Assembly: GCA_000091205.1 (NCBI GenBank)
Contig: AP006500.2
Length of the DNA stretch: 64,000 bases
Source of the DNA: Cyanidioschyzon merolae
Taxonomy: Eukaryota
Direction: 5' to 3' (one strand)
Shown here: positions 1,078 to 61,348 of the stretch, piece after piece
Layout of the letters: every line of letters begins with the position of its first letter
Numbering within the stretch: position 1 is the first letter of the stretch
The notes under the pieces: generated by a model
The model's database searches: none
What the model saw: the letters and a program-made list of their open reading frames with translations, nothing else
Told to the model about the DNA's origin: nothing
Position numbers and translations under genes: made by a program

Positions 1078-1650
1078 CTAGTTCGAATCTTTTTTGCCCC
1101 GCAACTGTAGGCTAGTCGAAGACTTGCGATCCGTAATATCCTGATCACGAGACTTGTTCTTGGAATCGCCAGCGTTCGGCCCAGAGCGCTTGCCCTGACC
1201 CGTCTTCCCGTCCTTGACCTTGCTCCCTTTCTCAGGTAGATTCTTTTCATTCATTCGCTGCTGCATTTTTTCCATGGCCTGTTTTTGGACGCGCTCGAGA
1301 AACTTAAGGATTACGTTTTCACCTTTGGAGTCTTTCGGTGGTGGCAAGAAACGCTGGTGCGGCCTTCCCAGTGCCCAGTTCTTCAAGTTCTCATAGGTCG
1401 TCGCACCACATATCCATCCTTTGGTCCTCTTATTGTAGAAAAAGGGAACTCCTCCACAGGACCCATTCTTGTCGAGCTTCTGCAGGAGCCGCAGGTTATC
1501 GTCCGAGTACCAAACCTCGAAGCGACGGATCGGAACCCCCAGTTCCTTCTGCAGTCGCTCCATCAACGGCTCCATATCCACACAGTGATCGCATTCGATC
1601 CCATAAAACTCAAGGAGGTGCGATCGGGAAGCCAGTTCTTTACTCGGCAT
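1078..1650 (-). CDS. Thioredoxin/glutaredoxin-fold protein with a CDHC (CxxC) motif and a GVPxF cis-Pro loop. The ORF continues upstream to 1785 through a poly-Arg stretch, so the start is ambiguous.
   Basis: The 235-aa ORF 1078..1785 (minus) has an internal Met at 1650 followed by EFYGIECDHCVDMEPL...GSCGGVPFFYN. The CxxC-to-cis-Pro spacing of about 48 aa fits a Grx/Trx fold. The codons upstream of 1650 are a GC-rich repeat that translates to RRRRRRRQWRR. Confidence 0.4.
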   Translation of the reverse strand: MPSKELASRSHLLEFYGIECDHCVDMEPLMERLQKELGVPIRRFEVWYSDDNLRLLQKLDKNGSCGGVPFFYNKRTKGWICGATTYENLKNWALGRPHQRFLPPPKDSKGENVILKFLERVQKQAMEKMQQRMNEKNLPEKGSKVKDGKTGQGKRSGPNAGDSKNKSRDQDITDRKSSTSLQLRGKKDSN

Positions 1651-1983
1651 CGTGAACGCTTCCACGGACGCTGCGTGGTTCAGGAAGCGTCTTGCCCGAA
1701 TGATGGAGAAGGGAGCGTGCTCTGTCGATTGTGCGTACCGCCGCCACTGCCGCCGCCGCCGCCGTCGCCGTGGATGTTTCAGCAAAGGCCGCTGTCACTC
1801 CGCGATGGCATTTTTGTACAGATTTATACAGAAGCAATCCGGGGTACGGGTAAGCGCACGTTCTGATGCGTGCATTCGTGTTCGGGTCGCTGTGCCGCGG
1901 AATCAAACTTTGGAACTATACCAGAGCGTGATGCAGTTGGCGTGTCGAAAGATAGGGTGTGCTAGCTCGAAAGCTTAAGTATT

Positions 1984-2415
1984 TTGGAGATGGAGAACTT
2001 GCTCCGCCGGGCCAAGCTCTGGAACGTGCCTGAGGGTGACGAGTGGCGCCTCGAAACGTGTCCAACGTGCAACGGCAAGGGTTTGATTATTTGTCCGTGC
2101 TGCCACGGGCGGGGCAAGTGTCTCTCGCTTGTGTTGTTTGTGAATATGGATACGCCGTGTTTGCTGTGCTTCGGAAACCCAGAGGTGACGTGTGGCAACT
2201 GTGAAGGCAACGGTAAGTTCGTCGTGACTCCTGACGGCCGGTACTGGTGCAAGCCGCCCAAGTATCGACGGAAACCGCCTCCGGGTGTGTCGAGCTGGAA
2301 CTTGTTCGCGAATATCCGGTTTCCGACGCAGGAACTGCCGCCCGAAGTCGCTAACGCCATCCGAGGTTTGAAGTTCGACGTTTTCGGTCAGGTGATCAAG
2401 CGCACCAGTGAATAG
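1984..2415 (+). CDS. Small DnaJ-type (CR-type) zinc-finger protein with three CxxCxGxG repeats; BSD2-like.
   Basis: The translation contains CPTCNGKG, CPCCHGRG and CGNCEGNG, the canonical DnaJ cysteine-rich CxxCxGxG spacing, in a 143-aa ORF. Confidence 0.5.
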   Translation: MEMENLLRRAKLWNVPEGDEWRLETCPTCNGKGLIICPCCHGRGKCLSLVLFVNMDTPCLLCFGNPEVTCGNCEGNGKFVVTPDGRYWCKPPKYRRKPPPGVSSWNLFANIRFPTQELPPEVANAIRGLKFDVFGQVIKRTSE

Positions 2416-7377: not shown

Positions 7378-7775
7378 GCTCCCAAACGGAATCAGTTTAT
7401 AGTGTTATGGACACGATGTAGACACCTCGGAATAAGTTATATTTTTGGACTTCACTGCTCCGAACGGAATCAGTGTGTTGTATCATGGATACCATCTAGA
7501 CACCTCGGAATAAGTTATATTTTTGGACTTCACTGCTCCGAACGGAATCAGTGTGTTGTATCATGGATACCATCTAGACACCTCGGAATAAGTTATATTT
7601 TTGGACTTCACTGCTCCGAACGGAATCAGTATGTTGTATCATGGATACCATCTAGACACCTCGGAATAAGTTATATTTTTGGACTTCACTGCTCCGAACG
7701 GAATCAGTGTGTTGTTTCATGGATACCATGTAGAAACCTCTAAATACGTAATACTTCTCGACTTCACTGCTCCAA
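7378..7775. repeat. Tandem array of about 5 copies with a 78-bp period.
   Basis: The sequence cctcggaataagttatatttttggacttcactgctccgaacggaatcagtgtgttgtatcatggataccatctagaca recurs at 7425, 7503, 7581 and 7659 (period 78), with degenerate units at both edges. Confidence 0.9.
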
Positions 7776-7886
7776 ATGCGCATCCCAAGGCGTACTATCT
7801 ATCCGTGTTCCTCCCGGTATCCTCGTATTTTTTCGCTCGCCTTGGTAAGGCGTCAACCCTGAGGTCTGGTTTACGTTGCGTAGTGT

Positions 7887-8510
7887 TTGGACTTGCTGGA
7901 AAGGGTTCAATCAACCGCAGCCGCTAAGCTCGACACCAGACGTATGCCCACTTACCACGTGTTGCGGGACGGCGTCTACTTGGCCCCAGTTCACAAGGCT
8001 GGCGTACTAGCCGACCTCGTCGATGACCGTTGGCGCCGCGACGCGCTCCCGCTGGAACCGGTCCCGCTGCCGGTTGGCACTATACTCGCTGACGATGACC
8101 AGCTCTTCGAGGATCTGGCACCGATCATTTCGGAAGATGCCGAGTATACCTGGGACGCCGCAGAAACAGAGGAGCTTGCAGCGCTCGCCGGTGACTGGCG
8201 TGGTTTGCAGCCTGAAACCGGACCGGATGTACCTCCAGGCGCTGAAGAGATAGGCTCTCGGGGTGATAACCCAGCAACAGGCGTGGGAACGAACGCAGAC
8301 AACAGCTCGAGTCGAGCCATTTGGGCGTCGCCTGCGTGGCGAACTACGCAGCAACGGCAGGCACTGCTCTCGCAGTGGTCGTCGATGCAGCCGGCAACTC
8401 TGCCGAGGGAGCGGGGACCCAACGCACTGGCGGAAGTGCTCTGGCGAAGGCACCGACGAACCTCTGGACTGGACCTTAACCTGGAGGTAACACCGCCGGA
8501 ACCTCTGTGA
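7887..8510 (+). CDS. Hypothetical protein (207 aa). A 204-aa ORF overlaps it on the opposite strand.
   Basis: Long ORF with strong G/C bias at third codon positions. No recognisable domain. The antisense ORF 7991..8605 makes the coding strand ambiguous. Confidence 0.25.
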   Translation: MDLLERVQSTAAAKLDTRRMPTYHVLRDGVYLAPVHKAGVLADLVDDRWRRDALPLEPVPLPVGTILADDDQLFEDLAPIISEDAEYTWDAAETEELAALAGDWRGLQPETGPDVPPGAEEIGSRGDNPATGVGTNADNSSSRAIWASPAWRTTQQRQALLSQWSSMQPATLPRERGPNALAEVLWRRHRRTSGLDLNLEVTPPEPL

Positions 8511-8520
8511 GGAGGGAATT

Positions 8521-8770
8521 TCGTGCATCCATCCCGCGTAAACGCAACACTGCTCGCACAGCTCGGTTTACCTAGGCCTCCTATGTGAATCGCAAATGCT
8601 AGCACCTGCCTCTACACTTTTCTGAAGCATTCATTCCAACAAGCAACGTCGTGCATCCATCCCGCGTAAACGCAACAATTCTCGCACAGCTCGGTTTACC
8701 TAGGCCTCCTATGTGAATCGCAAATGCTAGCACCTGCCTCTACACTTTTCTGAAGCATCCATTCCAGTGC
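8521..8770. repeat. Direct tandem duplication of about 128 bp (2 copies).
   Basis: tcgtgcatccatcccgcgtaaacgcaaca...tctgaagcat occurs at 8521 and again at 8649, with a few mismatches. Confidence 0.85.
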
Positions 8771-9080
8771 CTTCTCAGCGGAATACTGCCTTGGCGTCGT
8801 AGGCGGCCGCTGAGCGGCTGCCGAACACAGTCGGGTACCACGCGTACCGGTAAACGCGTCTATAGAGACAAAAGAGACCTGGGGTCCCCGGATACCGCAC
8901 TGTACTGAATACCGCGAGGCCTCAGTTGAGGTTTCTGATACATCGTACCGGCGCAAGGGTCAGTTGACTCGTCACCTCGGTGCTGCGTTCGACGGTAGCT
9001 GGTTCAGGGTGCCCTACCAGCGCCAGCGTCACCTTGTCCACAGCGAGCGGCACTGAAGGTATACGAGCGCTGCCGCTGAC

Positions 9081-10487
9081 ATGTGGTTGCGCGCTGTGAC
9101 CTCGTTACCTCGCTCCGTCTATATTCATATACCGTTTTGCCGACGACGTTGTTACTATTGTGACTTTGCCGTTTTGCCGGTTGGGCACTCGACGCGCGAA
9201 GTATCGCAGCGACTTTGGGAGCAGCTCCAGGAGCTGAGCGCACAGGGACGTTCGCAGCACGCGCTCACTGCACCGTCGACGTCCTCGGACCGCACGCTAG
9301 ACCGAATTTATGTCGATGCCGTCATAAGTGAAGTCTCGCAGACTCTTGAGCGGCTTCCTGATCGGCCGAGCTCGCTGCCGGAGCTCGATACGATTTATAT
9401 CGGAGGCGGGACGCCGTCGCTTCTACATGTAGACGAGTTGGCGCGGCTCCTGAGTGTCTTGCCTCGTAGCGGACACACTGAAGTCACCATGGAACTGGAC
9501 CCGGGCACATTTGATGCGGTGCGTTTGCATCAGTACCGTGACCTGGGTATCACACGAGTCTCGGTCGGTGTGCAAGCCCTGTCGGATGAGGTGCTGCGAG
9601 CCTGCGGCCGCAGCCACACGGTGAGAGATATTGAGCGCGCACTCGATGATCTTCATCGCTGTGGCTTTGGTGATGCCTACTCTCTCGACCTGATCTGCGG
9701 CTTACCAAACCTGAGCCCAGGCGCTTGGAGCGAAACCCTAGCAAGGATTGGAACCTGGAAGCCTCCGCATGTTTCGATCTATGATCTCAGCATTGAGTCA
9801 GGGACTCGATTTGCGGCGTGGTTGCGAGACGGGCTGCTCCAATTACCCTTGGAAGATGAAGCTGCAGAGATGCTCAGGGAAGCCATGATAACGTTGCGGG
9901 AAACGTACGGCTTCGATCACTACGAGGTCAGCAACTATGCAAGGGAACCAGCGCTGCGCTCGCGGCATAACCAAATCTACTGGCGTGGAGGCGAGTACTT
10001 TGGATTTGGATTAAGTGCAAGTTCGTATGTGCATGGCAAACGCTTCGACCGGCATCGGCAGCTTAAGGAGTATCTGGAATGGGTTTATTCCGGATGTTTA
10101 CCGTTTGACGAGGTCGCCGGCGACACACTCGATGAATGGCTCATGCTGCGTCTTCGCACACAAGAGGGCCTCTCGTTGGATGCATTGCAGGAGCGCTTTG
10201 GAGCACAAACCGTCGACCGTCTGCGGATCGCTGCGGAACCTTTTTGCAGAAGCAGACACTTGGCCTTTCGTGATGACGCGCACGGCATATCGTTGTATGC
10301 GACGGATCCAGACGGCTGGCTTATTCTTTCACATATTGTCTTGGAGTTGCTTGTAGCGCTGGAAGGCTTCCAGGATCGCTCGCCTGCACGACCAAACGGC
10401 AACATTGCTGGCTGCAACGAGGACGCGTTGAAGCCGGTGCTCCTATACGAAACCTCCTCAACCAGAGCTCAAGCCCCAAACTCGTAA
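9081..10487 (+). CDS. RSAD1: Radical SAM HemW/HemN-like protein (RSAD1-type heme chaperone / coproporphyrinogen III oxidase-like).
   Basis: N-terminal radical-SAM cysteine cluster IHIPFCRRRCYYCDFAV (CxxxCxxC), then IYIGGGTPSLL and the HemN-like C-terminal domain. 468 aa. Confidence 0.8.
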   Translation: MWLRAVTSLPRSVYIHIPFCRRRCYYCDFAVLPVGHSTREVSQRLWEQLQELSAQGRSQHALTAPSTSSDRTLDRIYVDAVISEVSQTLERLPDRPSSLPELDTIYIGGGTPSLLHVDELARLLSVLPRSGHTEVTMELDPGTFDAVRLHQYRDLGITRVSVGVQALSDEVLRACGRSHTVRDIERALDDLHRCGFGDAYSLDLICGLPNLSPGAWSETLARIGTWKPPHVSIYDLSIESGTRFAAWLRDGLLQLPLEDEAAEMLREAMITLRETYGFDHYEVSNYAREPALRSRHNQIYWRGGEYFGFGLSASSYVHGKRFDRHRQLKEYLEWVYSGCLPFDEVAGDTLDEWLMLRLRTQEGLSLDALQERFGAQTVDRLRIAAEPFCRSRHLAFRDDAHGISLYATDPDGWLILSHIVLELLVALEGFQDRSPARPNGNIAGCNEDALKPVLLYETSSTRAQAPNS

Positions 10488-23229: not shown

Positions 23230-25660
23230 ACTGCGAGGTGCATGTAATCAAAAGCGTTTTCGCGGTTTATTACGGATGCTTTCGAAGTAGGTTCATTTGA
23301 AGGAAGAAATACACTATGAGAAAGGTGTGAACATGGACTTTGGGGATCCTGGAGGGCCTTCATCTCCGGGTTCCGGAAAAATATGAATAAACAGTTTCGA
23401 GCCCAGAGGAACGAAAGGTGACGAAGAAGCGAAGGGGGCAGGTCAAACGTCAAGAGCTTCGGGAGAAACGACACTAATACCAGATTGTAATGAAATCATA
23501 TCTTCGAGGCCATATTTGGGACGCGTACGAGCCCAAAATGCGAGAGGCTATCAGAAAGCGTGCCGATTCGTGTTCGAGCAGTTTTCGCTACGTTTTCCTA
23601 GGACTGATGCATTTAGTAAGGAAGACGTATCGCGACGCGAAGGATATCAAAACATTCGAGGTTCCGGAAGAATTATTCAACAGGACCTTTATTCGGCACG
23701 TGATGAATGGCGCAAGGGAAGCGTCGAGGAGGAATGAGCGAGTGTATGACCTCCACGAGAATCACGCTGAATACCGCTTCAACGGTACTCGATACAGGGT
23801 TGACATGCGTATTTACGAATACAGAGCGATAGAGTACCTCCCGAACCTAAAGAATCGTATGATCGTGAACCTCAAACGTTTCATGATACGCTCCATCTTT
23901 ACGCTCTACCCGGGCCTATCTCGCAAATGAATAGAGAGCATCATCAATGGGATGACAAACGATCGCCAGCATGAACAGGAGATCGAATTCGTCGACGAAA
24001 GGACATAGCACAGGAGTACGAATGAAGCTTCTGTAATGCGTGCGGCTATTCAAGAGCGCCGTGCGGTCTTGGGGCTGATCAATCAAGCAGAAAAGGTATC
24101 AGATATAAGAAAAGATGAAGAAAGATGTCATCTCCTCATCCTACGCTATTTCGTGTTCCTGAACCGAGAACCCGAACGCAAGGCGGAGATGGAGCTGGGT
24201 GTGGGAAAAATGGAGAGTGGGAGAGACAGAAGGCTGTGCTGCTGGAGAAGCGCTTCAACGCTGTACCGTTGTGCACCATCAAGCCACATTTTGTGACTAT
24301 CGATTCCGGCGTTCGCTACGGCATCATGAAGGAGATCTGTCCGGAGTTCAATGTAAGGAAGACAGCGTTCACCAGTGAAAACCGGACAACGCACTGGAAG
24401 AATATCTTCGATTTCAAGCGTCTCAAAACAAACAAGGGGAAGAAATTCGCTCGGATGATCGAAACAGATGGGGTAGCCATGTGTGTACACTGTCGGCGAT
24501 TGAAGGCAGATCGTCCAGTTCCGTCCTCCGCTTCGTCCGTGACGAATTACGACGATGAGTAGGAGGCGGACCCAGCCACGCAGGAGGTAGAGGATACTGA
24601 CTTTGTCGTTGGCGCGGACCCTGGGAATACGAATATCATAACCATCGCAGTACCCAAGCGTGCGGAGGATGGTAACGATCGCAATTTATGCCAGAAAGAC
24701 ATACATCAGTTAAACCTCTCACGAGCGAGATATCACCGAGAGTCGGGAGTACTTAATGCGAGGGAAAAATGAGACATGAAATGCAGGAATGCAAGAGCAC
24801 CTTGAAGCTATGAACCAGATGACGAGCCGCGGAGCAGACTTTCAAGCTTTCAGGAATTCATGGAAGTTCGCGTTGCTCATTGGGATGCGCTGTGGAATGA
24901 GTATGCAAAGCCCTGGTGGGCTCGTTTGCGTATGAATCTATACGGTGGGAGGCAGCGGGCGTTCGCAAACTTTTTCAATCAGTTGAGCGCCTCGAATGAG
25001 GATGAAATTCAGAGGCTCGGTGCAGCGTACGGAGCAGGGCGCTGGAAGACCAAAAAGTGACTATGCTAGCACCAACGATGAGAACGTACAAGGAGTGTGC
25101 AAGGCGTTTCGTTACGATACCAATAGATGAGTTTCGAACATTTTATACACACCATGAACTGGGGTGTACACTCCAGAGAGTGGAGATGGAAAAGTTCCAG
25201 CGGAGCCATGAGGATATAAAAACGTACGGAGCGCTGACGGTAGAGCAAATGGAGAGGAGGGCGAGACTTCGAGGACTACTTGCATTAGTAAGTACAACCA
25301 ATGATGGCAAGAAACGTATGGAATTCGTGAACTGTGACTTTAATGCCGCTATCAATATAAGGAAATGTGCGGTGCTGGAGACGAGACCTCCAGAGTTGAC
25401 ATGGGAGAATTTTGTGGGGCAACCTCTCAAAGTGGAATTATATGAGAAAAAATTGGAATCAGTAGTATGCGGCCGGTCCAAAAAGACTGCAAGGCGTCTG
25501 CACGTTACTAAGAGACGTCTTGTCTAGGGCGGGTTTCTCGCCACTACTCTACACTTCTGGTCGCAACGTTTGTCTTTTGAAAGGCGTTTGTTGTCGGTGA
25601 TGGCGGTGTTGAGTACTAGAATTCCCCGTGTGAAAGCCAGGAGGCAGCTTTGTCAGGTTG
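23230..25660 (+). mobile_element. Fanzor/TnpB-like element, copy A. Its ORF is broken by frameshifts and stops; boundaries are approximate.
   Basis: ORF pieces 23490..23930, 24036..24296, 24125..24562, 24860..25060 and 25057..25527 align in order with the 622-aa ORF at 56757..58625. It encodes Ruv[20 protein letters not shown] near 24590-24650 and RuvC-III MEFVNCDFNAAINIRKCAV near 25320. About 120 nt after the stop codon are conserved with copy B. Confidence 0.7.
23490..25527 (+). pseudogene. Fanzor-like RuvC nuclease pseudogene with at least four frame disruptions.
   Basis: The homologous segments sit in three different frames and are separated by stop codons at 23930, 24562, about 24770 and 25060. 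Confidence 0.7.
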
Positions 25661-29278: not shown

Positions 29279-29850
29279 TGTGCAGACGCCTCCCAGCTTT
29301 TTTCGACCGGAAGCCAGTGGTCAGTTTTGGTTTATCCAGGCACCATACGAGCATCAGAGGCTGCCCCATAACATTAGATTGCCTAATTCCTTCAGCACTC
29401 GTCTTCAGCACCGAAAAATCGTGTGATATTGATGGCAATGTCGGAGTCTCGGATCACGAACTCCTTGTGCGCATTGCCGCTGGTTGAACGCATCAATGCG
29501 AGGATTGCTAGAACTCGCGCGCTCTGTGCGACTACAGTCTCGTTATCGCCCAGTGGGGCAAACACCATTTCTTGCCTGTCCGCCCGCTTCTTCTTCGTCT
29601 TCGGCACTAGCTCTTCATCGCTCGATGCTCGGCGAGAAGAGCGTTTTTCCTTATTTTTACCGGCATTCGGCGACGTTGACCCCTCCTGGATCCCCGACAT
29701 TCATGTCCATACTTTTCCCTTGGATTCTTCATTTCTTCAAACGGACACATTTCGAACACATCTGCTACAAGCCGCGAACATGCATTTGATAACACGCACC
29801 CGGATGCGGAACACCATTGAGGTGAACGACTTGAGTGAAAACGCTCACGC
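29279..29850 (-). mobile_element. Truncated 3'-terminal fragment of a Fanzor-like element (divergent subfamily).
   Basis: It starts with gtgcagacgcctcccagc, which matches the copy-B 3' tail at 56695. It then carries the reverse complement of the Fanzor C-terminal coding region (tattgatggcaatgtcggagtctcggatcac) and about 350 bp homologous to copy-B sequence near 56900-57250. Confidence 0.6.
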
Positions 29851-30033
29851 GGGACATCCGCCGAGGCGCTCTAGCCGACGCCCTCAGCGGTACGTCAAAG
29901 CCGTTCTTTCTCCGTGTTGCATCTGCACCAGCGGTGTGAGCGCTATCGGGAGTAGGCGCGGCAGGCACTCGGTGCACGATAGAATATATGGAACGACCAG
30001 TATATCCTAAAGGAAGTATGGGTCATGAAACAT

Positions 30034-30135
30034 GAAGTTAGGGTTCATCATGATGGACACTTGCTCGATTGCCATAATCCATCCCCCAAACTGGAATCCC
30101 TGCTCAATGGAAACGTTTTGTCGAACAAAAGCAAA
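30034..30135 (+). repeat. Dispersed repeat of about 100 bp; copy 1 of 2, with the second at 38004..38105.
   Basis: ataatccatcccccaaactggaatccctgctcaatggaaacgttttgtcgaacaaaa matches attatccatcccgcaaactggaatcccgtatcaacggaaacgttttgtcaaacaaaa at 38041. Confidence 0.6.
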
Positions 30136-33659: not shown

Positions 33660-36600
33660 CGTGCTTGATGACGCTTGGATCGGAGGAACCTGGAGAACAT
33701 GTTGTGTGGTTGCAGATGCCGCAAGGCGCTTCTGCGAAACGACCGATTCGGTTGCACCATGATCAAGGCGAAACGTTCGTGCGCTAACCTTGCAAATGGA
33801 TGAGCAAGCAGGTGCGGCTCTCGGGTGTCTACGTCCGCTCTGCGATTCGAATGCAGACTCAGCACGCTGCATTCATGGTAGTATGGATAGAGCCTGAGCA
33901 GAGTGCTTTCGCGACGTCTGTTGGTCGTGGAGTTCCTGCAGAGGCAGCTCGCTGCTGGCCCCGAATAGCTTTGAACCATGCTTGAGGAATGCACACTGCG
34001 TTCCGAGATGCGTATGAGCGTCTGGCAAGCGACGCTGACGTGTGTCTCGGCTGCGGTGGAACCGTGTCGACACTGCGGTGCACGTCGCTGTTCGCACATG
34101 GGCAAAGAGAGGGTGGATAACCTCGGCCTAGCATGCGTTCTCAATGACACAATAGACTACCGTGAATGGACCTTGTTGTTGCCCCTGGTGTCGTTGTGAG
34201 TGCTGCAGCATTCGAATGATGCGCTGTTCGCGAAAACGCGATGCCATTCGCATCCGGTAATGTCGCAGTCGATATGCCGGTGAGTGCATTTGTTTCCGTT
34301 CGAAAGCGGACGCGGTGGCGCCAGCGCCTTAGTGCGACGCCCGGCGCTCTCCGCAGGCAAACCGCAAGCAGTGTTCCCGCTGTCGCATCTGACGCTTGAC
34401 TGCTGATCGACGCTGCCTAGTTTTCAGTTCAGTGCGCGGGAACTCTTGGTGCATGGATTTGAACGATGATGACATGCCTCGGAATTCGACACCGTATTGG
34501 ACGCTTCCGGAAACTACCACCGGTTCGGTCAACGAGCCTCGGAACGGCTACAGCCTCCTCGGGATCGCTGCACCTCGAGATGCTTCCAAACATACCTGAT
34601 AGAGGTTGCGCATATGTTCTGGGTGCGCGTTCAGATGCGCAGCCGAGCGAGTCTGCTGACTCATGAATGAAACGAAGTAGGTCATTCGTTTTCGATTTTC
34701 CCTGCTGAAGATGATACTCTCGTGATTGCTCAGATGCGTGGCATACGGCGGCAGCAGCAGCAGCAGCAGCAGCGTCGAGACCTCGTTCTCTAGACTTGTG
34801 TCCAATGAAAATGGAAAAATAAACTGTTTACTCGGTTCGTGTTTGTCGATTTTCTTTTGGAAATTTTATTCGGATGCTAAGCTTCGACACTGAAAGTGCT
34901 GTCATACGGGCTTGTGGATTCTCACAGAACGCCAGGATGCTCGGTCGTCGTTTCCGATTGGCTGCTTTGACCTGCTGCCGCTGGAATTCGATACGTCACT
35001 GGAATGCAGATGATTCGCGACAACCTCGAACTGTTCTTCGTCCAATAAACGATATCATTATTCGATGCAAGTGTACGAGCGTCCGCTCCTCGAATTTCCT
35101 TCCTTGTGGCATGCCCATATCCTGCGTTCTTCATGTGATCGATCTCTCTCTGATTCAACCCATATCATAGGCAGAATACTTCGCAATAATGGATTGATGC
35201 GAAACAACTCGGTTTCGATCCTTGATGACTTGTTCGCAAGCTCATGCCGAATGTTCACTGTACCTACCATCTTAAATATGCGATTTCGTTCCAAATGCAG
35301 ATGCTGCTGTATCTGGAGCCGTTGACGAAACGGGGCTCCACAACGCCAGCATACCTTTCGTGACACACGCCTCCGGTGGATCGTGTTTCTTTTGTTTGCG
35401 TAGATACTGGTCTTGGACTCGAGGTTTCGTCATCGCAACGATTGCTTGCAGTGGACCGTTCGATTTCTCTTTTTCCACAGCTGAGAGCGTAAATGGATCG
35501 AAAGTTCTCGTCTTCTACGTATCTGGATTGTATTTCCGGTACTTGTCCTATCCGGCGCATCATCCTGTTCGGTAAATCCTTTATTGAATGCAGCAGATTT
35601 CGCTTTCGCACATAGCGGACAGCAGACACATAGTGCGGATCACCCAGAAGAAGCCCTTGGTCTAAGGGTACAGCACCGAGCGTGGAAACGGAAAGGAGCA
35701 TCGAGGAGAGTCTTCTGCACCCGACAACGGTATTTACGGAGCGAGGAAGCAAGCGTTCGGGCCTCACGGCGGGCGGCGGCCACAGGAGCAGGATGAGGAG
35801 GTGCTGTTGACGTATACGAAACACACGACCACAATCGACTTTCATTGCTGTGACAGACCCCATCGAGGCTGTATTTAGAGAAGATCAACATGATCTGCGA
35901 GGCTTCGATTGCAACCATTGCTTGTGCATGAAATGTATCGACAAGAGCTGGATGCACTGAGATAGGGACATGAACGCTGCCATCAACATCCTTCGACTGC
36001 TGAGAATGGAACTAGAAGGACAGAGGACAACGGCGTGTTCACAAGTGGAGATAAGCGAGAGGCAAAGGCTGCGATCTGCTGGTGAACATTTACCGAGAGT
36101 TTAGGATCCACGCCCGAATCGCAGGGCCGGCTTCATTTCTACTCTGACATGGGCGTAGACTACATGCCAATAGCGCTGTCCGCTGGGCGTGGCGTGTTGA
36201 ACACCGCTACTCGCGAGCGATGAACAGATTCTCAACGGCAGTTTGCTTCACGTCATAGCAGACCAGCTACACGCACTATGGTTGCTGTTCCTTCAGCAGA
36301 GCAACAAGATTTATAACGAATGCAAACGATGCTTTCGAAAGACCGAGCGGATGCAAGATTCGTCAATCGATGACGATTCTGGTGCGTTATGCCGTCCTCC
36401 ATGGATTCATGGCTTTGGATCTTCTTCACAGCGTGATTTCCTGTCGCAACAGGCGGTCTCCGGAAAACATCATGATCGTCGTGTTCTGGATACACGCCTG
36501 AAACAGGTGCCATTGTCCTCGGGCAAGGCGACTGCGCTGCATGCATTCTCGAGGAAAATGGGTATCTTGCCCGCGTCTACTTCACGAGGAGCCACAACTT

Positions 36601-38003
36601 CTCCAATCGGACGCCGTTTATCGATTCCCTGGACGCAAGTTGCAGCGTTCTCACCTCCCCGGATTCGATACGCAGTGCAGCGCGAGACATCAGGTCTACC
36701 AGAGGCATCGTTTGACCCTAACGACCTCTTTCCCAGAGGGCACGCTGTTCGTCGCCGTCTGGTGTGCACTGCGAATTGGCATGCACGGAGTCCGTCAACT
36801 TGCCACGAATATGCCGAATGAGGAAGCCTGAATGAACACTGCCCCAGTGATAGGCTGCATCGTCTCATGGTTGATTCGGAGCAAGCGCCGCACGTGAGTT
36901 TGCTGGAGCACTGCATTCGAAACTTCGTAAACGGATGCGCGCGGCTCTGGTCCTAAGCGGGCTGCCATCGACGCATTCTTCGATGCACAGCGGGGACGCT
37001 TTGCATTCACAAAGCCACGAATGAGCACTCGTTCACGCAGCCAGGTTCCCACTGCACAAAAAGGCGTTCCTGCATCTCTCCGAGACCGCGCCTGTGTTTC
37101 GAGAAGAGTTTCCGAAGAGACTCTCCTTGCTTGTTTTGCTTTCGATGTATCCGTGAATTTAAAGCTGCAGGTTTCCCGCCATGCGCGCACAATTTATCCC
37201 GTGAACAGGTACGAGCATCTCTGTACTTGGTGGACCATCGAAGTATTCACCTAGCTATCCTTTCGGGCGCAAGTTCTTGCCAGCCCACGTTTTTCATGAC
37301 TCATGATCGGTGCGTTCAACCACATGCCCTGGTACGCCAACCTCGATTCCAGGAGATCCTGGATCGAAGCGTCACTATCGTCACACCATCACAGAGAGAA
37401 GCGCTGTGTACCGGCCCTGAACAGATTCAAACGCCATGAAGCATTCTGCGTCGAGAGCACAGAAACGAAATGCTACCTAGCAACGAGATCAGAATTTCTT
37501 TCCGTCTCTACGGTTGGCATTGAAAGGGGGAATGGTTTTCCGTATTTTCGAAAGTTTACATTTTTTAGGCAGAAGATCCAGCGAGCTGGACGGGTCTGCC
37601 AGGCCAGTGCTTCATGTGCCTCTGCTGGGACAGGTGCGGTGTCGAGACCTGAGCAACTCGTCCGCAACGCAGTTCTTTCCGGATTTCGGAGCTGGTAGAA
37701 TGTGTCTGGGCGCTGCCCTGATTGCGATAGTCTGCTAGAATATCGCTTCGCGCTGCCGCAGGAATCAGGTCCGGCTGCGCAGATTGCTGGCTCCCAGTAT
37801 GATCATGAATCCCAGTCCTGTGACTAGTGAACCACACCTCGATCCGACGCTCTCTGTTGTATGGTAAATATGCTCTGTCTTCATCTCACATCTGCAACGT
37901 CGCTGCAAGGACTATGGCAGGTGCAGCAAGGCGGGTATGCGGCGCACTATAGAACATACAACACGACCAGTAAATCCGAGATCAAGTCTAGGAAAATAAA
38001 CTT

Positions 38004-38105
38004 GAAGGTAAGGTGCAACATCACTGACGCTTTCTCGTTTACCATTATCCATCCCGCAAACTGGAATCCCGTATCAACGGAAACGTTTTGTCAAACAAAA
38101 CAATT
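38004..38105 (+). repeat. Dispersed repeat of about 100 bp; copy 2 of 2.
   Basis: Matches 30034..30135 in the same orientation. Confidence 0.6.
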
Positions 38106-42959: not shown

Positions 42960-43540
42960 TCTGCGTCTGCCCAACAACGTGCAGACGCCTCCTAGTCTTT
43001 CTAGACCGGCCACCTATGAATGGGTTCAACTTCTTCCGGTATTATTCGACCTTGAGAGGTTCCTTCACAGGGTAAGTTCGCGTCAGCTCTGCGGGTCTCT
43101 TCTGCATCACCGCATATCTCCTTCTATTGATAGCAACGTGAAGGCCTCGATGCACAAACTCCATGCATACATCACCGCTGGTTGAATTCATCAGTGCAAG
43201 GATTCCTCGACGGCGTGCCCTGTGTGCCACTACAGTCTCGGTATCGCCCGTCGGGCAAACATCTTTTCCTGACCATCTCGCCTCTTCTTGTTCCTCGTAT
43301 CACTTGCTCTTCTTCGCGCGAAGAATCGGCGAGGAGTTTTTCCGTTTTTTTTCCGGCAGCCGGCGATGCCAGCTCTCTAGGATCCCCAATTTGCGTATTG
43401 AAATTTTTCCCTTACATTTTTTCTTCTTCGAATGAGCGCACGTCGAACGCATCTGCTATGAACCACGAAAGAGCATTGAATGTCAAACACCAGGAAGTAA
43501 AACACATTCGAGGTGAAAGACGTGAACAGGTTGCATAGAG
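42960..43540 (-). mobile_element. Truncated 3'-terminal fragment of a Fanzor-like element, same subfamily as 29279..29850.
   Basis: gtgcagacgcctcctagtctttctagaccggccacc at 42979 matches the copy-B tail. The minus-strand ORF 43042..43230 translates MEFVHRGLHVAINRRRYAVMQKRPAELTRT, a degenerate RuvC-III region (compare MEFVNRDFNAAVNIRRCAVLETRPPELNTRE in copy B). About 350 bp that follow are collinear with 29476..29850. Confidence 0.6.
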
Positions 43541-52614: not shown

Positions 52615-53000
52615 GTCGAAGAAGCCTCCCCGAAAATACGACCGAGAATGCTGAAACCACGCATGTATCCGTTCGTCTTTATTGATGTTTTTCGATTCCC
52701 GAAGTTGTCCATTTGAAACCAAGGATTCCTCGAACTCGTACCCTCTCTGTGCCACTACAGTCTCATTGTCGCTCCGTCAGACAAACACATTTTCTCGGCA
52801 ATCTCCTCCCCTCTTCTTCTTCTTTCCCGTCACTTGCTCTTCTTGGCTCGACGGTCGCCCAGAAGAATATTATTTTCGATTTTTCCTGCAGCCGGCCGCA
52901 CAGGGCCTCCAGGATCACTTACTTTTATGTCCATAATTTTCCCTTGGATTTTTTATCTCTTCAATTGAATACATTCTTTAGACCCTTAGGTGAGAACCTT
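52615..53000 (-). mobile_element. Fanzor-like 3' fragment abutting a Tc1/mariner transposase remnant (composite decayed transposon).
   Basis: aaggattcctcgaactcgtaccctctctgtgccactacagtctcattgtcgctccgtcag and the sequence after it are collinear with the fragments at 29.5 kb and 43.2 kb and with copy B near 56920. Confidence 0.5.
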
Positions 53001-56584: not shown

Positions 56585-58700
56585 GAATAACCTCGGACAA
56601 ATCGGGTACACGAACGTCTTACAAGATAAACGCTGCTGCGGCCAGAAGTGTACAGTAGTGGCGAGAAACGCGCCCTAGACAAGACCTCTCCAAGTGACGT
56701 GCAGACGCCTCCCAGACTTTTTGGACCGGCCACCAACTACTGATTCCATTTTTTTCTCATATTAGTCCACTTTGAGAGGTTCTCCCACAAAATTCTCTCG
56801 TGTTCAGCTCTGGAGGTCTCGTCTCCAACACCGCACATCTCCTTATATTGACAGCGGCATTAAAGTCTCTGTTCACGAATTCCATACGTTTCTTGCCATC
56901 ATTGGTTGTACTTACTAATGCAAGTATTCCTCGAACTTTCGCTCCCCTTTCCATTCGCTCTACCGTCAGCGCCCCGTACGTTTTCATATCCTCAGGGATC
57001 CGCTGGCACTTTTCCATCTCCACTCTCTGAAGTGTATATCCCAACTCATGGTGTTTATAGAATGTTCGAAACTTATCTTTTGGTATCGTAACGAAACGTC
57101 GTGCCCACTCCTTGTACGTTCTTGTCGTTGGGGCTGGGGTACACCCTTTTTGGGTCACCCAGCGCCCTGCTCCGTACGCTACTACCAGCCTGTGACTCTT
57201 GTCGTCCTCCAAGGCGCTCAACTCATTAAAGAACTTGGCGAATGCACGCTGCTTCCCACTGTATAGATTCATACGCAGACGAGCCCAGCGGGGCTTTGAA
57301 TATTCTTTCCACATCTCCTCGTCATGAGCAGCCTGGGTTTCCATGAATTCCCGAAAGGCTCGAAAAACCGCCCCGCGGTTTGTCACTTTGCTGAACTCCT
57401 CACGGATATCGAACTCCGGGCTGATTTCTTTCAATGGGCCATGAAGGACGCTGGAGTTGATAGTCACAAAATGTGACTTGACGTTGCATAACGGAACGAC
57501 ATTGAAGCGCTTCCCCATTAGGGCAGCCTTCCGTCTCTCCCACTCCTCATTTTCTTCCTCATCCCGCATCATCTCCGCCTTGCGTTTGAGTTCTCGGTCC
57601 AAAAACACGAAATACGGCAGGATGAGGCGAAAGTATCTTTCCTTATATTTTTTCAACTCTGATATCTTTTCTGCTGGATTAGCCAGCCCAAGTACAAGAC
57701 GATCCTCTTGAAAAAGCGCACGGATTACAGAAGCTTCACTCGTATTCTCGTTTGACACTTTCTTGTCGACAAATTCGATCTCATCTTCATGCTGGCCATT
57801 GTTTTTGATACCATTGATAATCGCCCATATTGCTTTGCGAGAGAAGACCGGGTACAGCGCAAACACGGCGCGTATCATGAAACGTTCGAGGTTCATCGTC
57901 GAATGGTTCTTCAGGTTCGTGATGTACTTCATCGCCCCGTATGTGCAAATACGCGAGTCACCCTTGTATCGAGTACCCTCGAGGCTGTAAAACGGACGTT
58001 TTTCGTGAAGAGCGTGAACCCGCTCATTTTCCCTGCGCGTTTCCCCTGTGCCAAACATCAGCTGGCGAGTAGAGGTCTTGTCGAAAAACTCGTCTGGAAT
58101 CTCGACTGTTTCCATGTGCGTCACGTTGCGATACATCTCCCTCGCCAAATGCATCAGTCCTGACGACGCCTTAACAATGCTCTTGGAGCACGAGTCGACA
58201 CGGTTGCGGATGGCGTCTCGCAACTTTTCCTTGTACGAATCCTTCACACGTTTAAGAAGACAGGCTTTCGCCACCATCTCGTCGTACTGTTGCCTTTCGT
58301 ACAGCTTGTTCGTCTTCTCTTGTACCTCTGGACTCTGTACTGATTGTCGTCTTTTTCTGGCAGCTGGCGACACTGCGCCTCCAGGATCCTCTACTTCCTT
58401 TTCTATACGTTTCCTTTTTGTATTTGTTTTTTTTTTCTTGAAAAAGAGCGCATTTTTGAACGCTTCTTCTACAAACCAGCAAAAATAACTTGACCCCAGT
58501 CTGTTGAGGGTTAAAACGCAATCGAACTGAAAACGATGCTTTGCTACGACTACAACGCAAACACATCTTTTTCGGTGGAGCAAAACTCTATATATCAGGA
58601 TCGCGTTTCCCTTCCACAGCGACATTTACGTCGTGCCTCGTGAGTGCCAGTTCTCGAGGTGCGCGTATCGACCGCGCCATGGATAAAAGAATAGAAACGA
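56585..58700 (-). mobile_element. Fanzor/TnpB-like element, copy B, carrying a 622-aa ORF. The 5' boundary is uncertain.
   Basis: About 90% nucleotide identity to copy A across the C-terminal coding region and the roughly 170 nt downstream. The 3' homology to copy A fades at about 56585. Confidence 0.75.
56757..58625 (-). CDS. Fanzor-like (eukaryotic TnpB/OMEGA-family) RuvC-fold protein. It lacks the RuvC-I segment and so is probably nuclease-dead.
   Basis: C-terminal KKRMEFVNRDFNAAVNIRRCAVLE matches the D-x-N-A-A-x-N-I RuvC-III signature of TnpB/Fanzor. It is collinear with copy A except for a deletion of about 385 nt that spans the GADPG RuvC-I motif. Confidence 0.7.
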   Translation of the reverse strand: MSLWKGNAILIYRVLLHRKRCVCVVVVAKHRFQFDCVLTLNRLGSSYFCWFVEEAFKNALFFKKKKTNTKRKRIEKEVEDPGGAVSPAARKRRQSVQSPEVQEKTNKLYERQQYDEMVAKACLLKRVKDSYKEKLRDAIRNRVDSCSKSIVKASSGLMHLAREMYRNVTHMETVEIPDEFFDKTSTRQLMFGTGETRRENERVHALHEKRPFYSLEGTRYKGDSRICTYGAMKYITNLKNHSTMNLERFMIRAVFALYPVFSRKAIWAIINGIKNNGQHEDEIEFVDKKVSNENTSEASVIRALFQEDRLVLGLANPAEKISELKKYKERYFRLILPYFVFLDRELKRKAEMMRDEEENEEWERRKAALMGKRFNVVPLCNVKSHFVTINSSVLHGPLKEISPEFDIREEFSKVTNRGAVFRAFREFMETQAAHDEEMWKEYSKPRWARLRMNLYSGKQRAFAKFFNELSALEDDKSHRLVVAYGAGRWVTQKGCTPAPTTRTYKEWARRFVTIPKDKFRTFYKHHELGYTLQRVEMEKCQRIPEDMKTYGALTVERMERGAKVRGILALVSTTNDGKKRMEFVNRDFNAAVNIRRCAVLETRPPELNTREFCGRTSQSGLI

Positions 58701-59218
58701 GTCATGAAGTAGCAGCTCGATAACAATTTCTTTCCCCTCTACGGTAGGCGTTAGATGGGGAAAGTTTCTAAGCTTTCGAAAGTTCACCTTAGAGGCGGAA
58801 AAGCGCGCGAGCGGGACGAATTTCCCAGTCTCATGCTTCATGCTCCCTCCAGTGCCCAGCGCTGTAGCGAGATATAAGCAGCTTGTCCGAAACGCAGTTT
58901 ATTCTTGGACTCTGAACGGGTAGCCTGCGTCTGGTCGTCGCGCTGGTCCCAGTGGACTCCTAGCGTATCGCTTCGCGCAGCCGCAGCCGGTAGGTCTGTC
59001 CGCGCCGTTTCCAGGTTCCCAGAATGATAACGAATCCCGACCCCGTATCAGATGAACCCTGCCTCGATCCGGCACCCTCTGTGGTATGGTAAAGCCTTTC
59101 TGTCTCCGTGCTGCATCCGTTCCAGCGGTAGAAGCGCCACGGCGAGTGCTCAAAGCAGGTAATCGGCGCATGATAGAACATTCGAAACGACCGGTGCACC
59201 CGAAAGAATACACCAGTA

Positions 59219-61348
59219 ATGGAACTTGGAGGTAGTTGCCTTATGATGGACAATTACATGAATCCTAATACCCGTCCCGCAATCTGGTATCCCTTATCAA
59301 TGAAGACGTTTCTTCATCGAAAAAAGATCAGCGGTACTGCTTCGAGCAGCAGTGCACGGCGGCGGCGCCGCCGAATGCCTGCGATGCACTCGGATATCTT
59401 GCTCAGGACGATAGCCTGGCCTCAAGACAGAACAGGAAAACAGTGCACTAGACAGTGCTGTTTTGTTTTGTGCTGTGTTTTGGACGAGCCCCTCAGGGAA
59501 CAGCGAGGGAGTTGCCCGCACGCCATGGGTAGTCCGCAGCTGGGGCACGCCTGCGCACCACACCAGGGCCTTCATAAGGGAACTCGGCAGCGAACCACGG
59601 AAAAGAGGCACATTGCTCCTGCCCAATTAGGACAGTTTGACACTGAGAGCGAGGTCGCTTTCTCGGGATATGGTAATGCTGCAGTGGTCAACCGTGGAAC
59701 CCACCCGCGAAGTTTTTCAGCGCGTACCAGCTTCGTCTGGTTTACTGAGCCCTGTGCTTTGACCAAAGTGCACGGCAAACACCCGTGCATAGGCATCCAG
59801 GAGAGTTCCTTCAGCGCTCCTGTTCTCTATCCGATCCATGGAGCTTCACGGATTCTTGTTCAGAGGCATTCCCCGCATCCGGTAAAGCGTGCGCTCCCGC
59901 GCTCGCGCTCTCGCTCCTGGAAAGCCTCGCTGTTCGAGCGTTTCTTCGGCCGGAAACGGTCATCGCGCCAAACTTGGCCCCACTTGATCAAAGAACAAGC
60001 ACCAACGGGGACAGTACCAGCTTCAGGTGCCTCATTCGCACAGAATGGAGCGGACACCACAGTTATTCCGCGAGCACGCGCTCGACATTCCCGTCACGAA
60101 CCGACAAGGGTAGCGTCGCCGACTCCCAGTAGTCGTGACATCACAGATGTTGACCGAAGCAACGCGGAAACTTGCATCGCGATACGCCATGTACACAAGG
60201 TTTTTCCCGACTCACATGCACCAGGAGGACAATTTTACGCCCTTTGTGATATTTTGCTCGATATCGAGGACGGCTCGCTAGTGGCTTTGGTTGGCCCCAG
60301 CGGTAGCGGCAAGTCGACACTGCTTCGTTGTATTGCGGGGCTTGAGAATCCGACCTCGGGGCGTATCTTCCTCCATGGGCGAGATACCGAGGAGATGAGT
60401 GTTCAGGAACGACGGATTGGCTTTGTATTCCAGCATTATGCATTGTGGAAGCACATGACCGTGTGGAAGAACATTGCATTTGGATTGGAGATTCGCAAGA
60501 CGCCTCGCTCAGAAATAGAACGGCGCGTCTTGGAGCTTCTGAAGCTCATGGGTCTTGAGGGACTCGGTGACCGCTACCCACATCAACTGAGCGGCGGACA
60601 GCGCCAACGGGTTGCGCTGGCTCGAGCCCTAGCTCCCGAACCGCGCGTCCTCCTCCTCGATGAGCCGTTTGGTGCGTTGGATACGCGAGTGCGGCGGAGT
60701 CTGCGTGCATGGCTTCGGCGCTTGCACGATGAGGTCGGCACAACGACGATCTTCGTGACGCATGATCAACAGGAGGCTTTAGAGATAGCCAGCTCCGTGG
60801 TGGTCATGAACAAGGGCCAGATCGAGCAGGTCGGCACACCGCTTGAGATCTATGAGCATCCAGCGTCGCCGTTTGTCATGAGCTTCATGGGCGATGTGAG
60901 CGTCGTGAGTCGTGATGCGCTCCCCGCAGAGCAGGCAAACGGGCGCACCTTCACGAATGCTACTCGAGCGCGCTCCGTGGAGACATCCAAAAAAGACTCC
61001 ATTTGGTCGGACCCCGAGCGTCCGCCGACAATACCGCGCGAGTCTGAGACAACGACCAATGTCCGTAAGAGCGATAACGCCGCCCAGTACTTGATGCTGC
61101 GTCCTCATGACGTTCACTTGCATCGCAGCCCCGATAGCACCACGGCTCCGGCTCGTGTTGTCGACGTGTTTTTCTTAGGTTGGAGTGTGCGTGTTGATGT
61201 CGAGCTCCAAGACGGCCAAATTCTTCAATCCATCATGCTCACAACGCGCTACAAAGAGCTGGGCGATTTGTATCCCGGCGACCTCGTGCATGTTAAGTTC
61301 TTCGGGGAACGCTCCTTCGAGGTGGACGAGGCCGAGTATAACATCTGA
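59219..61348 (+). CDS. ABC transporter ATP-binding protein of the CysA (sulfate/molybdate importer) type, with a C-terminal TOBE domain and a 200-300 aa N-terminal extension.
   Basis: Walker [11 protein letters not shown]-loop FVFQHYALW, signature [15 protein letters not shown], Walker [13 protein letters not shown]-loop FVTHDQ, then a TOBE-like C-terminal beta domain. The first roughly 300 aa are low-complexity with no in-frame Met close to the domain. Confidence 0.8.

What the first reader, a model, noticed from the sequence alone, without database searches (positions are those of the whole stretch)
56585..58700. Fanzor-like (eukaryotic TnpB / OMEGA-family RuvC) ORF inside a transposon-like insertion
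The 622-aa minus-strand ORF ends with KKRMEFVNRDFNAAVNIRRCAVLETRPPEL. D-x-N-A-A-x-N-I is the RuvC-III catalytic signature shared by IS605 TnpB, Cas12 and the eukaryotic Fanzor proteins. A second, frameshifted copy in this window supplies the matching RuvC-I motif ([14 protein letters not shown]), so the family assignment does not rest on one motif. Fanzors are programmable RNA-guided DNA endonucleases. Here the family is present as several decayed copies in a GC-rich, intron-poor eukaryotic genome.
Basis: partly seen in the sequence, partly recalled or inferred. Interest (0 to 1): 0.85.

Follow-up and report, generated by a model that had tools for sequence, protein, structure and literature searches.

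The report
Dead copy of known Fanzor1 transposon
The ORF is a crippled copy of CMe-1A, a Fanzor1 (eukaryotic TnpB-like, RNA-guided nuclease) transposon of the red alga Cyanidioschyzon merolae that was described in 2013, so the family call is right but the object is ordinary and non-functional.

Summary
The 622-aa minus-strand ORF (56757-58625) and its C-terminal RDFNAAVNI motif are real, and so is the second, frameshifted copy with GADPGNTN (about 23.2-25.6 kb). The window is Cyanidioschyzon merolae 10D. Both copies match the published CMe-1A Fanzor1 consensus (Bao & Jurka 2013; 3169 bp, about 150 copies) at 81-86% nucleotide identity. An AlphaFold model of an intact family member (pLDDT 88) hits only solved Fanzor1 structures at the top (Foldseek E 1e-16 to 1e-13, TM up to 0.72). 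The Fanzor signatures (DPG, alternative RuvC-II Glu, RuvC-III Asp) are invariant or nearly so in the family. The family call is therefore supported. The flagged ORF, however, is not a nuclease gene. Its start codon is lost (ATG>ATA). A 447-bp in-frame deletion removes RuvC-I. The catalytic Glu is Lys. A +1 insertion frameshifts the C-terminus. Pfam and PDB sequence searches fail, partly because this clade lacks the CCCC zinc finger. Side observations: the 3' end has two conserved hairpins with some covariation (candidate omega-RNA scaffold), and the 5' flank is T-rich. Verdict: already known, and a decayed copy.

The parts
56613..59319 (-). Copy B: CMe-1A element with both termini. Consensus 1-1950 and 2394-3159 align at 81% and 86% identity. 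The published consensus end maps to 56615, and homology among copies continues 2 nt further (CGTT).
56757..58625 (-). The flagged 622-aa ORF. Residues 1-73 are read-through of the element's 5' UTR. Homology to CMe-1 protein starts at the former start codon.
58404..58406 (-). Former start codon of the Fanzor ORF, mutated ATG>ATA in copy B.
57395..57396 (-). Junction of the 447-bp in-frame deletion (consensus 1944-2390). It removes the TDG beta-strands, the linker and the RuvC-I DPG motif (Asp431 of CMe-1).
57072..57074 (-). Codon of the alternative RuvC-II glutamate (Glu603 of CMe-1), mutated GAG>AAG (Lys), so DEFRT becomes DKFRT.
56844..56867 (-). RuvC-III motif RDFNAAVNI. Asp672 codon GAC (56865-56867) is retained.
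56804..56804 (-). +1 insertion after ...RPPEL that frameshifts the last ~40 codons and creates the premature stop at 56757.
56613..56678 (-). 3' terminal 66 nt after the original stop codon: two hairpins (HP-A, HP-B). Candidate 3' part of the omega-RNA scaffold, or transposon-end signal.
58687..59319 (-). 5' module of copy B corresponding to consensus 1-635 (= TE-N2_CMe of Bao & Jurka).
23243..25588 (+). Copy A: 5'-truncated CMe-1A (consensus 827-3169, 83% identity). Start ATG>GTG, 5 frameshifting indels, 6 stops in the consensus frame. All three catalytic codons are retained (D 24617-19, E 25129-31, D 25336-38).
29280..30122 (-). Heavily deleted CMe-1A copy (consensus 5-255 plus 2840-3086).
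37456..38093 (-). Solo TE-N2_CMe-like copy (consensus 4-634, 77% identity).
42964..43481 (-). Internally deleted CMe-1A copy (consensus 830-969 plus 2852-3100).
52873..52954 (-). Short CMe-1A fragment (consensus 885-968).

Best explanation
The region is one decayed copy (copy B, 56613-59319, minus strand) of CMe-1A. This is a ~3.2-kb non-LTR, TIR-less repeat of Cyanidioschyzon merolae whose single ORF encodes a Fanzor1 protein, a eukaryotic homolog of TnpB/Cas12. By analogy with characterised Fanzor1s (inferred), intact family members should fold into a WED/REC/RuvC/TNB bilobed enzyme. They should bind an omega-RNA transcribed from the 3' end of the element, with the two terminal hairpins as the likely 3' scaffold and the guide read from the flank beyond ...CGTT. 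They should cut DNA that is complementary to the guide next to a transposon-adjacent motif, possibly the T-rich tract seen 5' of insertions. The catalytic triad would be Asp431 (DPG), the relocated Glu603 (DEFRT) and Asp672 (RDFNAA). Copy B itself cannot do this (shown). It has no start codon. A 447-bp in-frame deletion removes the RuvC-I strand with Asp431. Glu603 is Lys. The C-terminus is frameshifted. The long ORF survives only because the big deletion happens to be in frame and an upstream ATG in the 5' UTR opens the frame.
For: The published CMe-1A consensus DNA and CMe-1 protein (PMC3627910 supplements) align to the window end to end at 81-86% nucleotide and 74-78% amino-acid identity. 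The window is C. merolae 10D. The paper reports ~150 copies ~80% identical to the consensus, with no TIRs. An AF2 model of the intact family member P0046 (pLDDT 88, pTM 0.87) has as its top 7 Foldseek PDB hits the solved Fanzor1s PpFz, SpuFz and GtFz (E 1.9e-16 to 1.4e-13, TM 0.52-0.72, near full length). Cas12f follows at E~1e-3. In 79 diverse members the DPG Asp and Glu593 are invariant, Asp662 is present in 78 of 79, and the canonical RuvC-II position is an invariant Gly. That is the Fanzor 'rearranged' site of Jiang 2023 and Yoon 2023. Lesions of copy B were located base by base. Ka/Ks against the consensus is the same for copy B (0.42) and the obviously dead copy A (0.44). For the 3' hairpins, a covariance model finds them in 56 copies, 84% of cells are paired against 40-65% when slid, and 7 of 15 pairs show double changes. 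The 5' flank is 55-75% T against ~20% background.
Against: No sequence-profile support: Pfam gives nothing above threshold for copy B, the stitched copy A, the published consensus or the homologs (best is PF07282 at E 0.0066 for a distant member). The family profile hits no PDB sequence at E<=10. The clade lacks the CCCC zinc finger present in SpuFz1 and ISDra2 TnpB. Omega-RNA, TAM and cleavage are inferred, not shown. The covariation alignment was fitted to the model and the sequences are related. No Rfam family matches. The fold test was done on a 37%-identical relative, not on the window protein itself.
Confidence: 0.92

Rival explanations
1. The 622-aa ORF is an intact, potentially active Fanzor nuclease gene (the reading implied by the first reader's interest score).
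For: Long uninterrupted ORF. RuvC-III motif intact. Bao & Jurka state that some CMe-1A copies still encode intact proteins.
Against: RuvC-I Asp and ~149 codons are deleted. The catalytic Glu is replaced by Lys. The native ATG is replaced by ATA. The C-terminus is frameshifted. Mutation of the equivalent Asp or Glu abolishes activity in ApmFNuc (PMC10530073). The ORF is not annotated in the reference proteome.
Confidence: 0.01
2. Copy B is an exapted, nuclease-dead derivative, for example an RNA- or DNA-binding regulator of active CMe-1 elements, kept open by selection after the in-frame deletion.
For: The 447-bp and 27-bp deletions are both in frame, and there are no stops within 572 aligned codons. 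Ka/Ks is 0.42 against the consensus.
Against: The clearly dead copy A has the same Ka/Ks (0.44), so the value reflects selection before the copies were disabled. The start codon is lost, the C-terminus is frameshifted and the N-terminus is translated UTR. No identical or near-identical protein exists in 15 billion sequences.
Confidence: 0.04
3. The motif match is to a bacterial-type TnpB (IS200/IS605/IS607) acquired by horizontal transfer or contamination, or to Fanzor2, rather than to Fanzor1.
For: D-x-N-A-A-x-N-I is shared by all TnpB, Cas12 and Fanzor proteins. There is a weak sub-threshold hit to the Cas12f1-like TNB domain.
Against: The copies are embedded between exact C. merolae nuclear genes. 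RuvC-I is DPG, not D-hydrophobic-G. The glutamate is in the alternative position. The top structural neighbours are exclusively Fanzor1, with Cas12f 12 orders of magnitude weaker. The protein is ~734 aa with a large REC lobe. No TnpA or serine recombinase is adjacent.
Confidence: 0.03

Closest known systems
CMe-1A / CMe-1 Fanzor1 element of Cyanidioschyzon merolae (Bao & Jurka 2013, Mobile DNA 4:12; Repbase)
   Same: Same organism and same element. Consensus positions 1-3169 align to copy B at 81-86% and to copy A at 83%. There are no TIRs, the 5' 635 bp is the TE-N2_CMe module, and the protein motifs are identical ([44 protein letters not shown]).
   Different: These particular copies are degenerate. 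B has a 447-bp deletion, E603K, a lost start and a frameshift. A is 5'-truncated and multiply frameshifted. My alignments suggest the element extends 2 nt (CGTT) beyond the published 3' end and is preceded by a T-rich tract that is not in the consensus.
Solved Fanzor1 nucleases SpuFz1 (8GKH, 9CEU), PpFz1 (9CF0/9CF1), GtFz1 (9CER)
   Same: Overall bilobed fold (Foldseek E 1e-16 to 1e-13, TM 0.52-0.72 over ~680-790 aligned columns). DPG RuvC-I, Gly at the canonical RuvC-II position, an alternative Glu just before the TNB insertion, and RuvC-III Asp at a helix N-terminus.
   Different: Only 13-15% sequence identity, with no detectable sequence-profile match. The CMe-1 clade has no CxxC...CxxC zinc finger in the TNB/NUC domain (H/Y/C then T/S at those positions). 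Omega-RNA, TAM and activity are untested.
Bacterial IS200/IS605 TnpB (e.g. ISDra2) and Cas12f
   Same: RuvC fold with a split D-E-D triad. Presumed guide RNA from the transposon's right end.
   Different: Weak structural match (Cas12f E~1e-3, TM 0.2-0.37). TnpB typically has D-hydrophobic-G and the canonical Glu. It has a CCCC zinc finger, is ~400 aa, and is accompanied by a TnpA Y1 transposase, which is absent here.

Membership tests
CMe-1A (Fanzor1 transposon family of C. merolae) | Nucleotide homology to the 3169-bp published consensus across the element, in the C. merolae genome | tested here: met
   Copy B: consensus 1-1950 at 80.9% and 2394-3159 at 86.0%. Copy A: consensus 827-3169 at 83.0%. 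Host genes are exact C. merolae 10D proteins.
Fanzor (Fanzor1) | RuvC-I motif D-P-G with catalytic Asp | tested here: met
   Met for the family and for copy A: D422-P423-G424 is invariant or nearly so in 79 members, and GADPGNTN is at 24611-24634. NOT met for the flagged ORF (copy B), where the motif is deleted.
Fanzor (Fanzor1) | Rearranged RuvC-II: inert Gly/Pro at the canonical Glu position plus a conserved alternative Glu downstream, just before the zinc-finger position | tested here: met
   G560 is invariant and E593 is present in 79/79 members, 33 residues downstream. This matches Jiang 2023 and Yoon 2023. Copy A keeps GAG (25129-31). Copy B has AAG = Lys (57072-74), so the flagged ORF fails.
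Fanzor (Fanzor1) | RuvC-III Asp in (R)D-x-N-A-A-x-N-I at the start of a helix of the RNase H-like fold | tested here: met
   D662 in 78/79, N664 in 79/79, A665/A666 in 74 and 78 of 79. In the model the motif follows strand 658-660 and starts helix 661-674. Present in copy B (56844-56867) and copy A (25336-25359).
Fanzor (Fanzor1) | Overall fold matches experimentally solved Fanzor1 structures | tested here: met
   Foldseek against PDB: ranks 1-7 are PpFz, SpuFz and GtFz, E 1.9e-16 to 1.4e-13, TM up to 0.72. Tested on the intact relative P0046, not on the window ORF.
Fanzor / TnpB | CCCC zinc finger (CxxC...CxxC) between RuvC-II and RuvC-III (present in 'many' members; SpuFz1 and ISDra2 have it) | tested here: not met
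   The corresponding positions are H/Y/C, T/D/K and T/S, and the second CxxC is absent (one semi-conserved Cys, 54/79). Window copies read THHELG.... This feature is not universal in the family, so it does not exclude membership.
Fanzor / OMEGA systems | Omega-RNA transcribed from the 3' (right) end of the element, with the scaffold ending at the boundary and the guide taken from the flank | tested here: inconclusive
   Two conserved hairpins lie in the last 66 nt with some compensatory changes. There are no expression data and no Rfam match.
Fanzor / OMEGA systems | RNA-guided, TAM-dependent double-strand DNA cleavage | not testable with these tools
   Needs biochemistry. There is only an indirect hint of a T-rich motif 5' of insertions.
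Pfam PF07282 Cas12f1-like_TNB (formerly OrfB_Zn_ribbon) / PF01385 OrfB_IS605 | Score above the Pfam gathering threshold | tested here: not met
   Copy B: no hit. Stitched copy A: none. CMe-1 consensus: E 0.52, 11 bits against a 26.3 cut-off. Best is P0054 at E 0.0066, 17 bits.
Canonical bacterial TnpB (IS200/IS605) | D-hydrophobic-G RuvC-I, canonical RuvC-II Glu, adjacent TnpA, ~400 aa | tested here: not met
   DPG is present, the canonical position is Gly, the protein is 734 aa, and there is no transposase ORF in the element.

The most novel reading that the evidence does not exclude
The CMe-1 lineage (Pfam's uncharacterised DUF8286; 2,749 clusters at 50% identity in metagenomes, including a giant-virus-like contig) may be a distinct zinc-finger-less branch of Fanzor1. 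Its intact members in thermo-acidophilic Cyanidiales would be active RNA-guided nucleases that use a compact omega-RNA ending in two terminal hairpins and a T-rich TAM. This would be a naturally heat- and acid-adapted eukaryotic OMEGA system that sequence-motif searches requiring CxxC would have missed.
Probability: 0.3. Interest if true: 0.45.

Novelty: already known. Interest (0 to 1): 0.15.

Why it matters
It matters little for this locus. It is one of ~150 decayed copies of a transposon family whose Fanzor1 nature has been in the literature since 2013, and this copy cannot encode an active enzyme. There are three small points of value. (a) The reference C. merolae annotation and Pfam (DUF8286) do not label this family as Fanzor, and standard HMM or PDB sequence searches miss it, so the link is easy to overlook. 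(b) The clade shows that a Fanzor1 fold can exist without the CCCC zinc finger. (c) Intact relatives from hot, acidic habitats might be of practical interest as nucleases if they are active.

Tried and rejected
1. Pfam scans of copy B, the stitched copy A, the published CMe-1 consensus and five homologs gave nothing above threshold.
2. A profile search of the family against all PDB sequences gave zero hits at E<=10.
3. The third 'DRDMNAAINILR' site at ~35.97 kb has only a 12-aa match (E 0.05-0.7 in a tiny database; Pfam E 7.4). It cannot be shown to be a RuvC relic.
4. I tested whether the left end plus its T-rich flank forms a hairpin equivalent to the 3' terminal hairpin, as in IS200/IS605 ends. 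Mean folding energy was -5.9 against -5.1+/-2.6 for shuffles, so I rejected the idea.
5. RNAalifold on a plain MAFFT alignment of 3' ends found only a 4-bp hairpin. A structure-aware covariance-model alignment was needed.
6. An Rfam scan of the whole window gave no family at gathering score.
7. No target-site duplication or TIR could be recognised at copy B's ends, in agreement with Bao & Jurka.
8. Low Ka/Ks as evidence for exaptation of copy B was rejected, because the dead copy A has the same value.

Full report
OBSERVATION. The ORF list confirms a 622-aa ORF at 56757..58625 on the minus strand. It contains KKRMEFVNRDFNAAVNIRRCAVLETRPPEL, followed by 15 more residues. A six-frame motif scan finds the same RuvC-III-like motif at 25336-25359 (+) and GADPGNTN at 24611-24634 (+). 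Self-BLAST shows that 56610-58222 is 74-84% identical to 23539-25591 in inverted orientation. The flagged copy lacks about 470 bp that the other copy has, including the DPG motif. GC is 0.49-0.59 along the window.

ORGANISM. Three flanking ORFs are exact matches to Cyanidioschyzon merolae 10D proteins (KRR1, serine dehydratase and CMR449C, on a 1,253,087-bp chromosome). The 622-aa sequence itself is absent from a 15-billion-protein collection, so it is not annotated.

SEQUENCE-PROFILE TESTS FAIL. Pfam gives nothing for the ORF, for a conceptually stitched copy-A protein, or for the published consensus. The best result is a sub-threshold PF07282 (Cas12f1-like TNB) hit at E 0.0066 for a distant relative. 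A profile of 11 family members finds no PDB chain sequence even at E<=10.

HOMOLOGS. The stitched copy-A protein finds 54 proteins, with E down to 1e-241. All come from JGI or ENA metagenomes, and several carry the precomputed domain PF26935, which is DUF8286. A profile search of 1.84 billion representatives finds 2,749 clusters at E<=1e-3 and 407 at E<=1e-30. In a 79-sequence alignment, the Asp of DPG, the Gly of AYG and the Glu of DEFRT are invariant. The Asp, Asn and Ala-Ala residues of RDxNAAxNI are present in 74-79 of 79.

FOLD. An AlphaFold2 model of the intact 702-aa member P0046 (37% identical to the window family) has mean pLDDT 88 and pTM 0.87. The strand and helix order fits an RNase H-like RuvC domain. 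DPG ends strand 416-423, AYG ends strand 554-560, DEF follows strand 587-591, and RDFNAA starts helix 661-674. In Foldseek against the PDB, ranks 1-7 are all solved Fanzor1 complexes: Parasitella PpFz, Spizellomyces SpuFz and Guillardia GtFz. Their E-values are 1.9e-16 to 1.4e-13, TM-scores 0.52-0.72, and alignments cover 680-795 columns. Cas12f comes next at E~1e-3.

ALREADY PUBLISHED. Bao & Jurka 2013 (PMC3627910) list one Fanzor1 family, CMe-1, in C. merolae. CMe-1A has a 3169-bp consensus and ~150 copies, each ~80% identical to the consensus. It has no TIRs and its TSD is undetermined. It encodes a 734-aa protein, and its 5' 635 bp equal another repeat, TE-N2_CMe. I took the consensus DNA and protein from the paper's supplements and mapped them to the window.
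- Copy B corresponds to consensus 1-1950 (59319-57392, 80.9%) plus 2394-3159 (57392-56623, 86.0%).
- Copy A corresponds to consensus 827-3169 (23243-25586, 83.0%).
- Further pieces lie at 29280-30122, 37456-38093 (a solo TE-N2_CMe), 42964-43481 and 52873-52954.
Together they make up about 7.1 kb, or 11% of the window.

STATE OF THE FLAGGED COPY. A three-way alignment with the consensus shows the following for copy B.
- The start codon is ATA (58406-58404). The ORF opens at an upstream ATG inside the 5' UTR, so its first 73 residues have no homolog.
- There is a 27-bp in-frame deletion.
- A 447-bp in-frame deletion (consensus 1944-2390, junction 57396/57395) removes the TDG strands, the linker and RuvC-I with Asp431.
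- Glu603 is changed to Lys (AAG, 57074-57072).
- Asp672 is retained.
- A +1 insertion at 56804 frameshifts the C-terminus.
Mutating the equivalent Asp or alternative Glu inactivates a characterised Fanzor (PMC10530073). Copy A keeps all three catalytic codons but has GTG at the start, five frameshifting indels and six stops in the consensus frame. Ka/Ks against the consensus is 0.42 for B and 0.44 for A. Part of the divergence therefore arose under purifying selection in active lineages, which agrees with the paper's remark on long-lasting coding capacity. It gives no sign that B in particular is maintained.

FANZOR SIGNATURES. Yoon 2023 and Jiang 2023 distinguish Fanzors from most TnpBs by DPG in RuvC-I and by an alternative Glu that replaces a canonical Glu now occupied by Gly or Pro. 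Both signatures are met here. The CCCC zinc finger shared by SpuFz1 and ISDra2 TnpB (PMC10432273) is not present. The positions are H/Y/C, T/D/K and T/S, and the second CxxC is missing across the family. This probably explains the failure of the Zn-ribbon HMM and of motif-based searches.

HOW IT PROBABLY WORKS (inferred for intact members). Omega-RNAs of Fanzors derive from the 3' transposon end and may overlap the ORF end. I fetched 80 related metagenomic loci. Most are CMe-1A copies at 76-89% identity. Their 3' ends stay alignable to ...GAAAGGCGTT, often followed by TGTT, and then diverge. Single-sequence folds repeatedly give a hairpin right after the stop codon and a terminal hairpin, built from different sequences. 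A covariance model built on 14 copies finds 56 instances, including both window copies. On that alignment, 84% of cells are paired against 40-65% with slid partners, 7 of 15 pairs show double changes, and the covariation score exceeds all 500 shuffles. The caveats are that the alignment was fitted to the model and the sequences are related. The 10 nt 5' of the element are 55-75% T against ~20% further out, in 17 independent copies. This tract could be a target or TAM preference, or unrecognised element sequence. None of this has been shown experimentally.

VERDICT. The family call is correct. The object is a known element and the specific ORF is a pseudogene. Novelty: already known. Interest is low.

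Noticed in passing
window 3418-4130 (+): A much older, heavily decayed relic of a related Fanzor1. It has 30-43% aa identity to P0046 residues 452-701 (summed E 8e-20), with recognisable 'ADGAGHAG..TP' (AYGAG) and 'TIPVDALRV' (VDEFRT) motifs, stops and frameshifts. Bao & Jurka list only one Fanzor family for C. merolae. This could be a second, extinct lineage or a very old CMe-1 copy.
   Followed up: partly
window 35900-35990 (+): 'CNHCLCMKC...DRDMNAAINILR' resembles a zinc-finger plus RuvC-III end of a TnpB/Fanzor. Only 12 aa match (E 0.05-0.7; Pfam PF07282 E 7.4), so it cannot be called.
   Followed up: yes
window 59320-59331 and the 5' flanks of 16 other copies (L025, L028, L032, L033, L038, L041, L043, L049, L053, L055, L056, L058, L074, L080; window 30123-, 38094-): The 10 nt immediately 5' of the published CMe-1A start are 55-75% T (often GAT followed by T/C runs), while sequence further out is unrelated. 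This is either a target or TAM-like preference, or an unrecognised part of the element.
   Followed up: partly
window 56613-56678 (-) and 25524-25588 (+); 54 further matches in loci L008-L082: Two conserved hairpins lie between the Fanzor stop codon and the element end, with compensatory changes. The element appears to end 2 nt (TT) beyond the published consensus, and many copies share TGTT just outside.
   Followed up: yes
CMe-1A consensus 2117-2196; loci L008, L009, L012, L020, L026, L027, L048, L055, L057, L059, L069, L074; proteins P0001, P0008: A ~75-80-bp segment encoding '...[16 protein letters not shown]...' just upstream of RuvC-I is tandemly duplicated a variable number of times in metagenomic copies, giving up to 4 repeats in the protein. 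It lies in a linker that is absent from the distant members P0046 and P0054.
   Followed up: no
loci L010, L016-L022, L035-L037, L064, L065, L069-L071 etc.: In many copies homology to CMe-1A starts only at consensus ~660-687, sometimes with an inverted piece of consensus 84-255 upstream. The 5' 635-bp TE-N2_CMe module therefore looks separable from the Fanzor module, which suggests a composite element.
   Followed up: no
L001 (JGI Ga0620986_00154, 560,680 bp), 7395-9863: The distant family member P0054 (31% id) sits directly downstream of a 198-aa DDE_3 (Tc1/mariner-type) transposase fragment. Its contig is densely packed and carries Rpb2, Rpb6, Rpb9-like, RNA_pol_N, TBP-like and photolyase genes, so it looks like a giant virus (not verified).
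   Followed up: no
Pfam PF26935 (DUF8286): The precomputed domain on many homologs is an uncharacterised DUF. By fold and motifs, the proteins that carry it are Fanzor1 nucleases, so this is an annotation gap.
   Followed up: partly
window 59219-61348 (+): The mechanical 709-aa ORF of the CysA-like ABC ATPase begins inside the 5' end of copy B (59219-59319, opposite strand). Its first ~34 residues are transposon-derived and the real start is probably downstream.
   Followed up: no
whole window: CMe-1A/TE-N2_CMe-derived DNA totals about 7.1 kb (~11%) of this 64-kb stretch of a genome usually described as repeat-poor. No Rfam family reaches gathering score anywhere in the window.
   Followed up: partly
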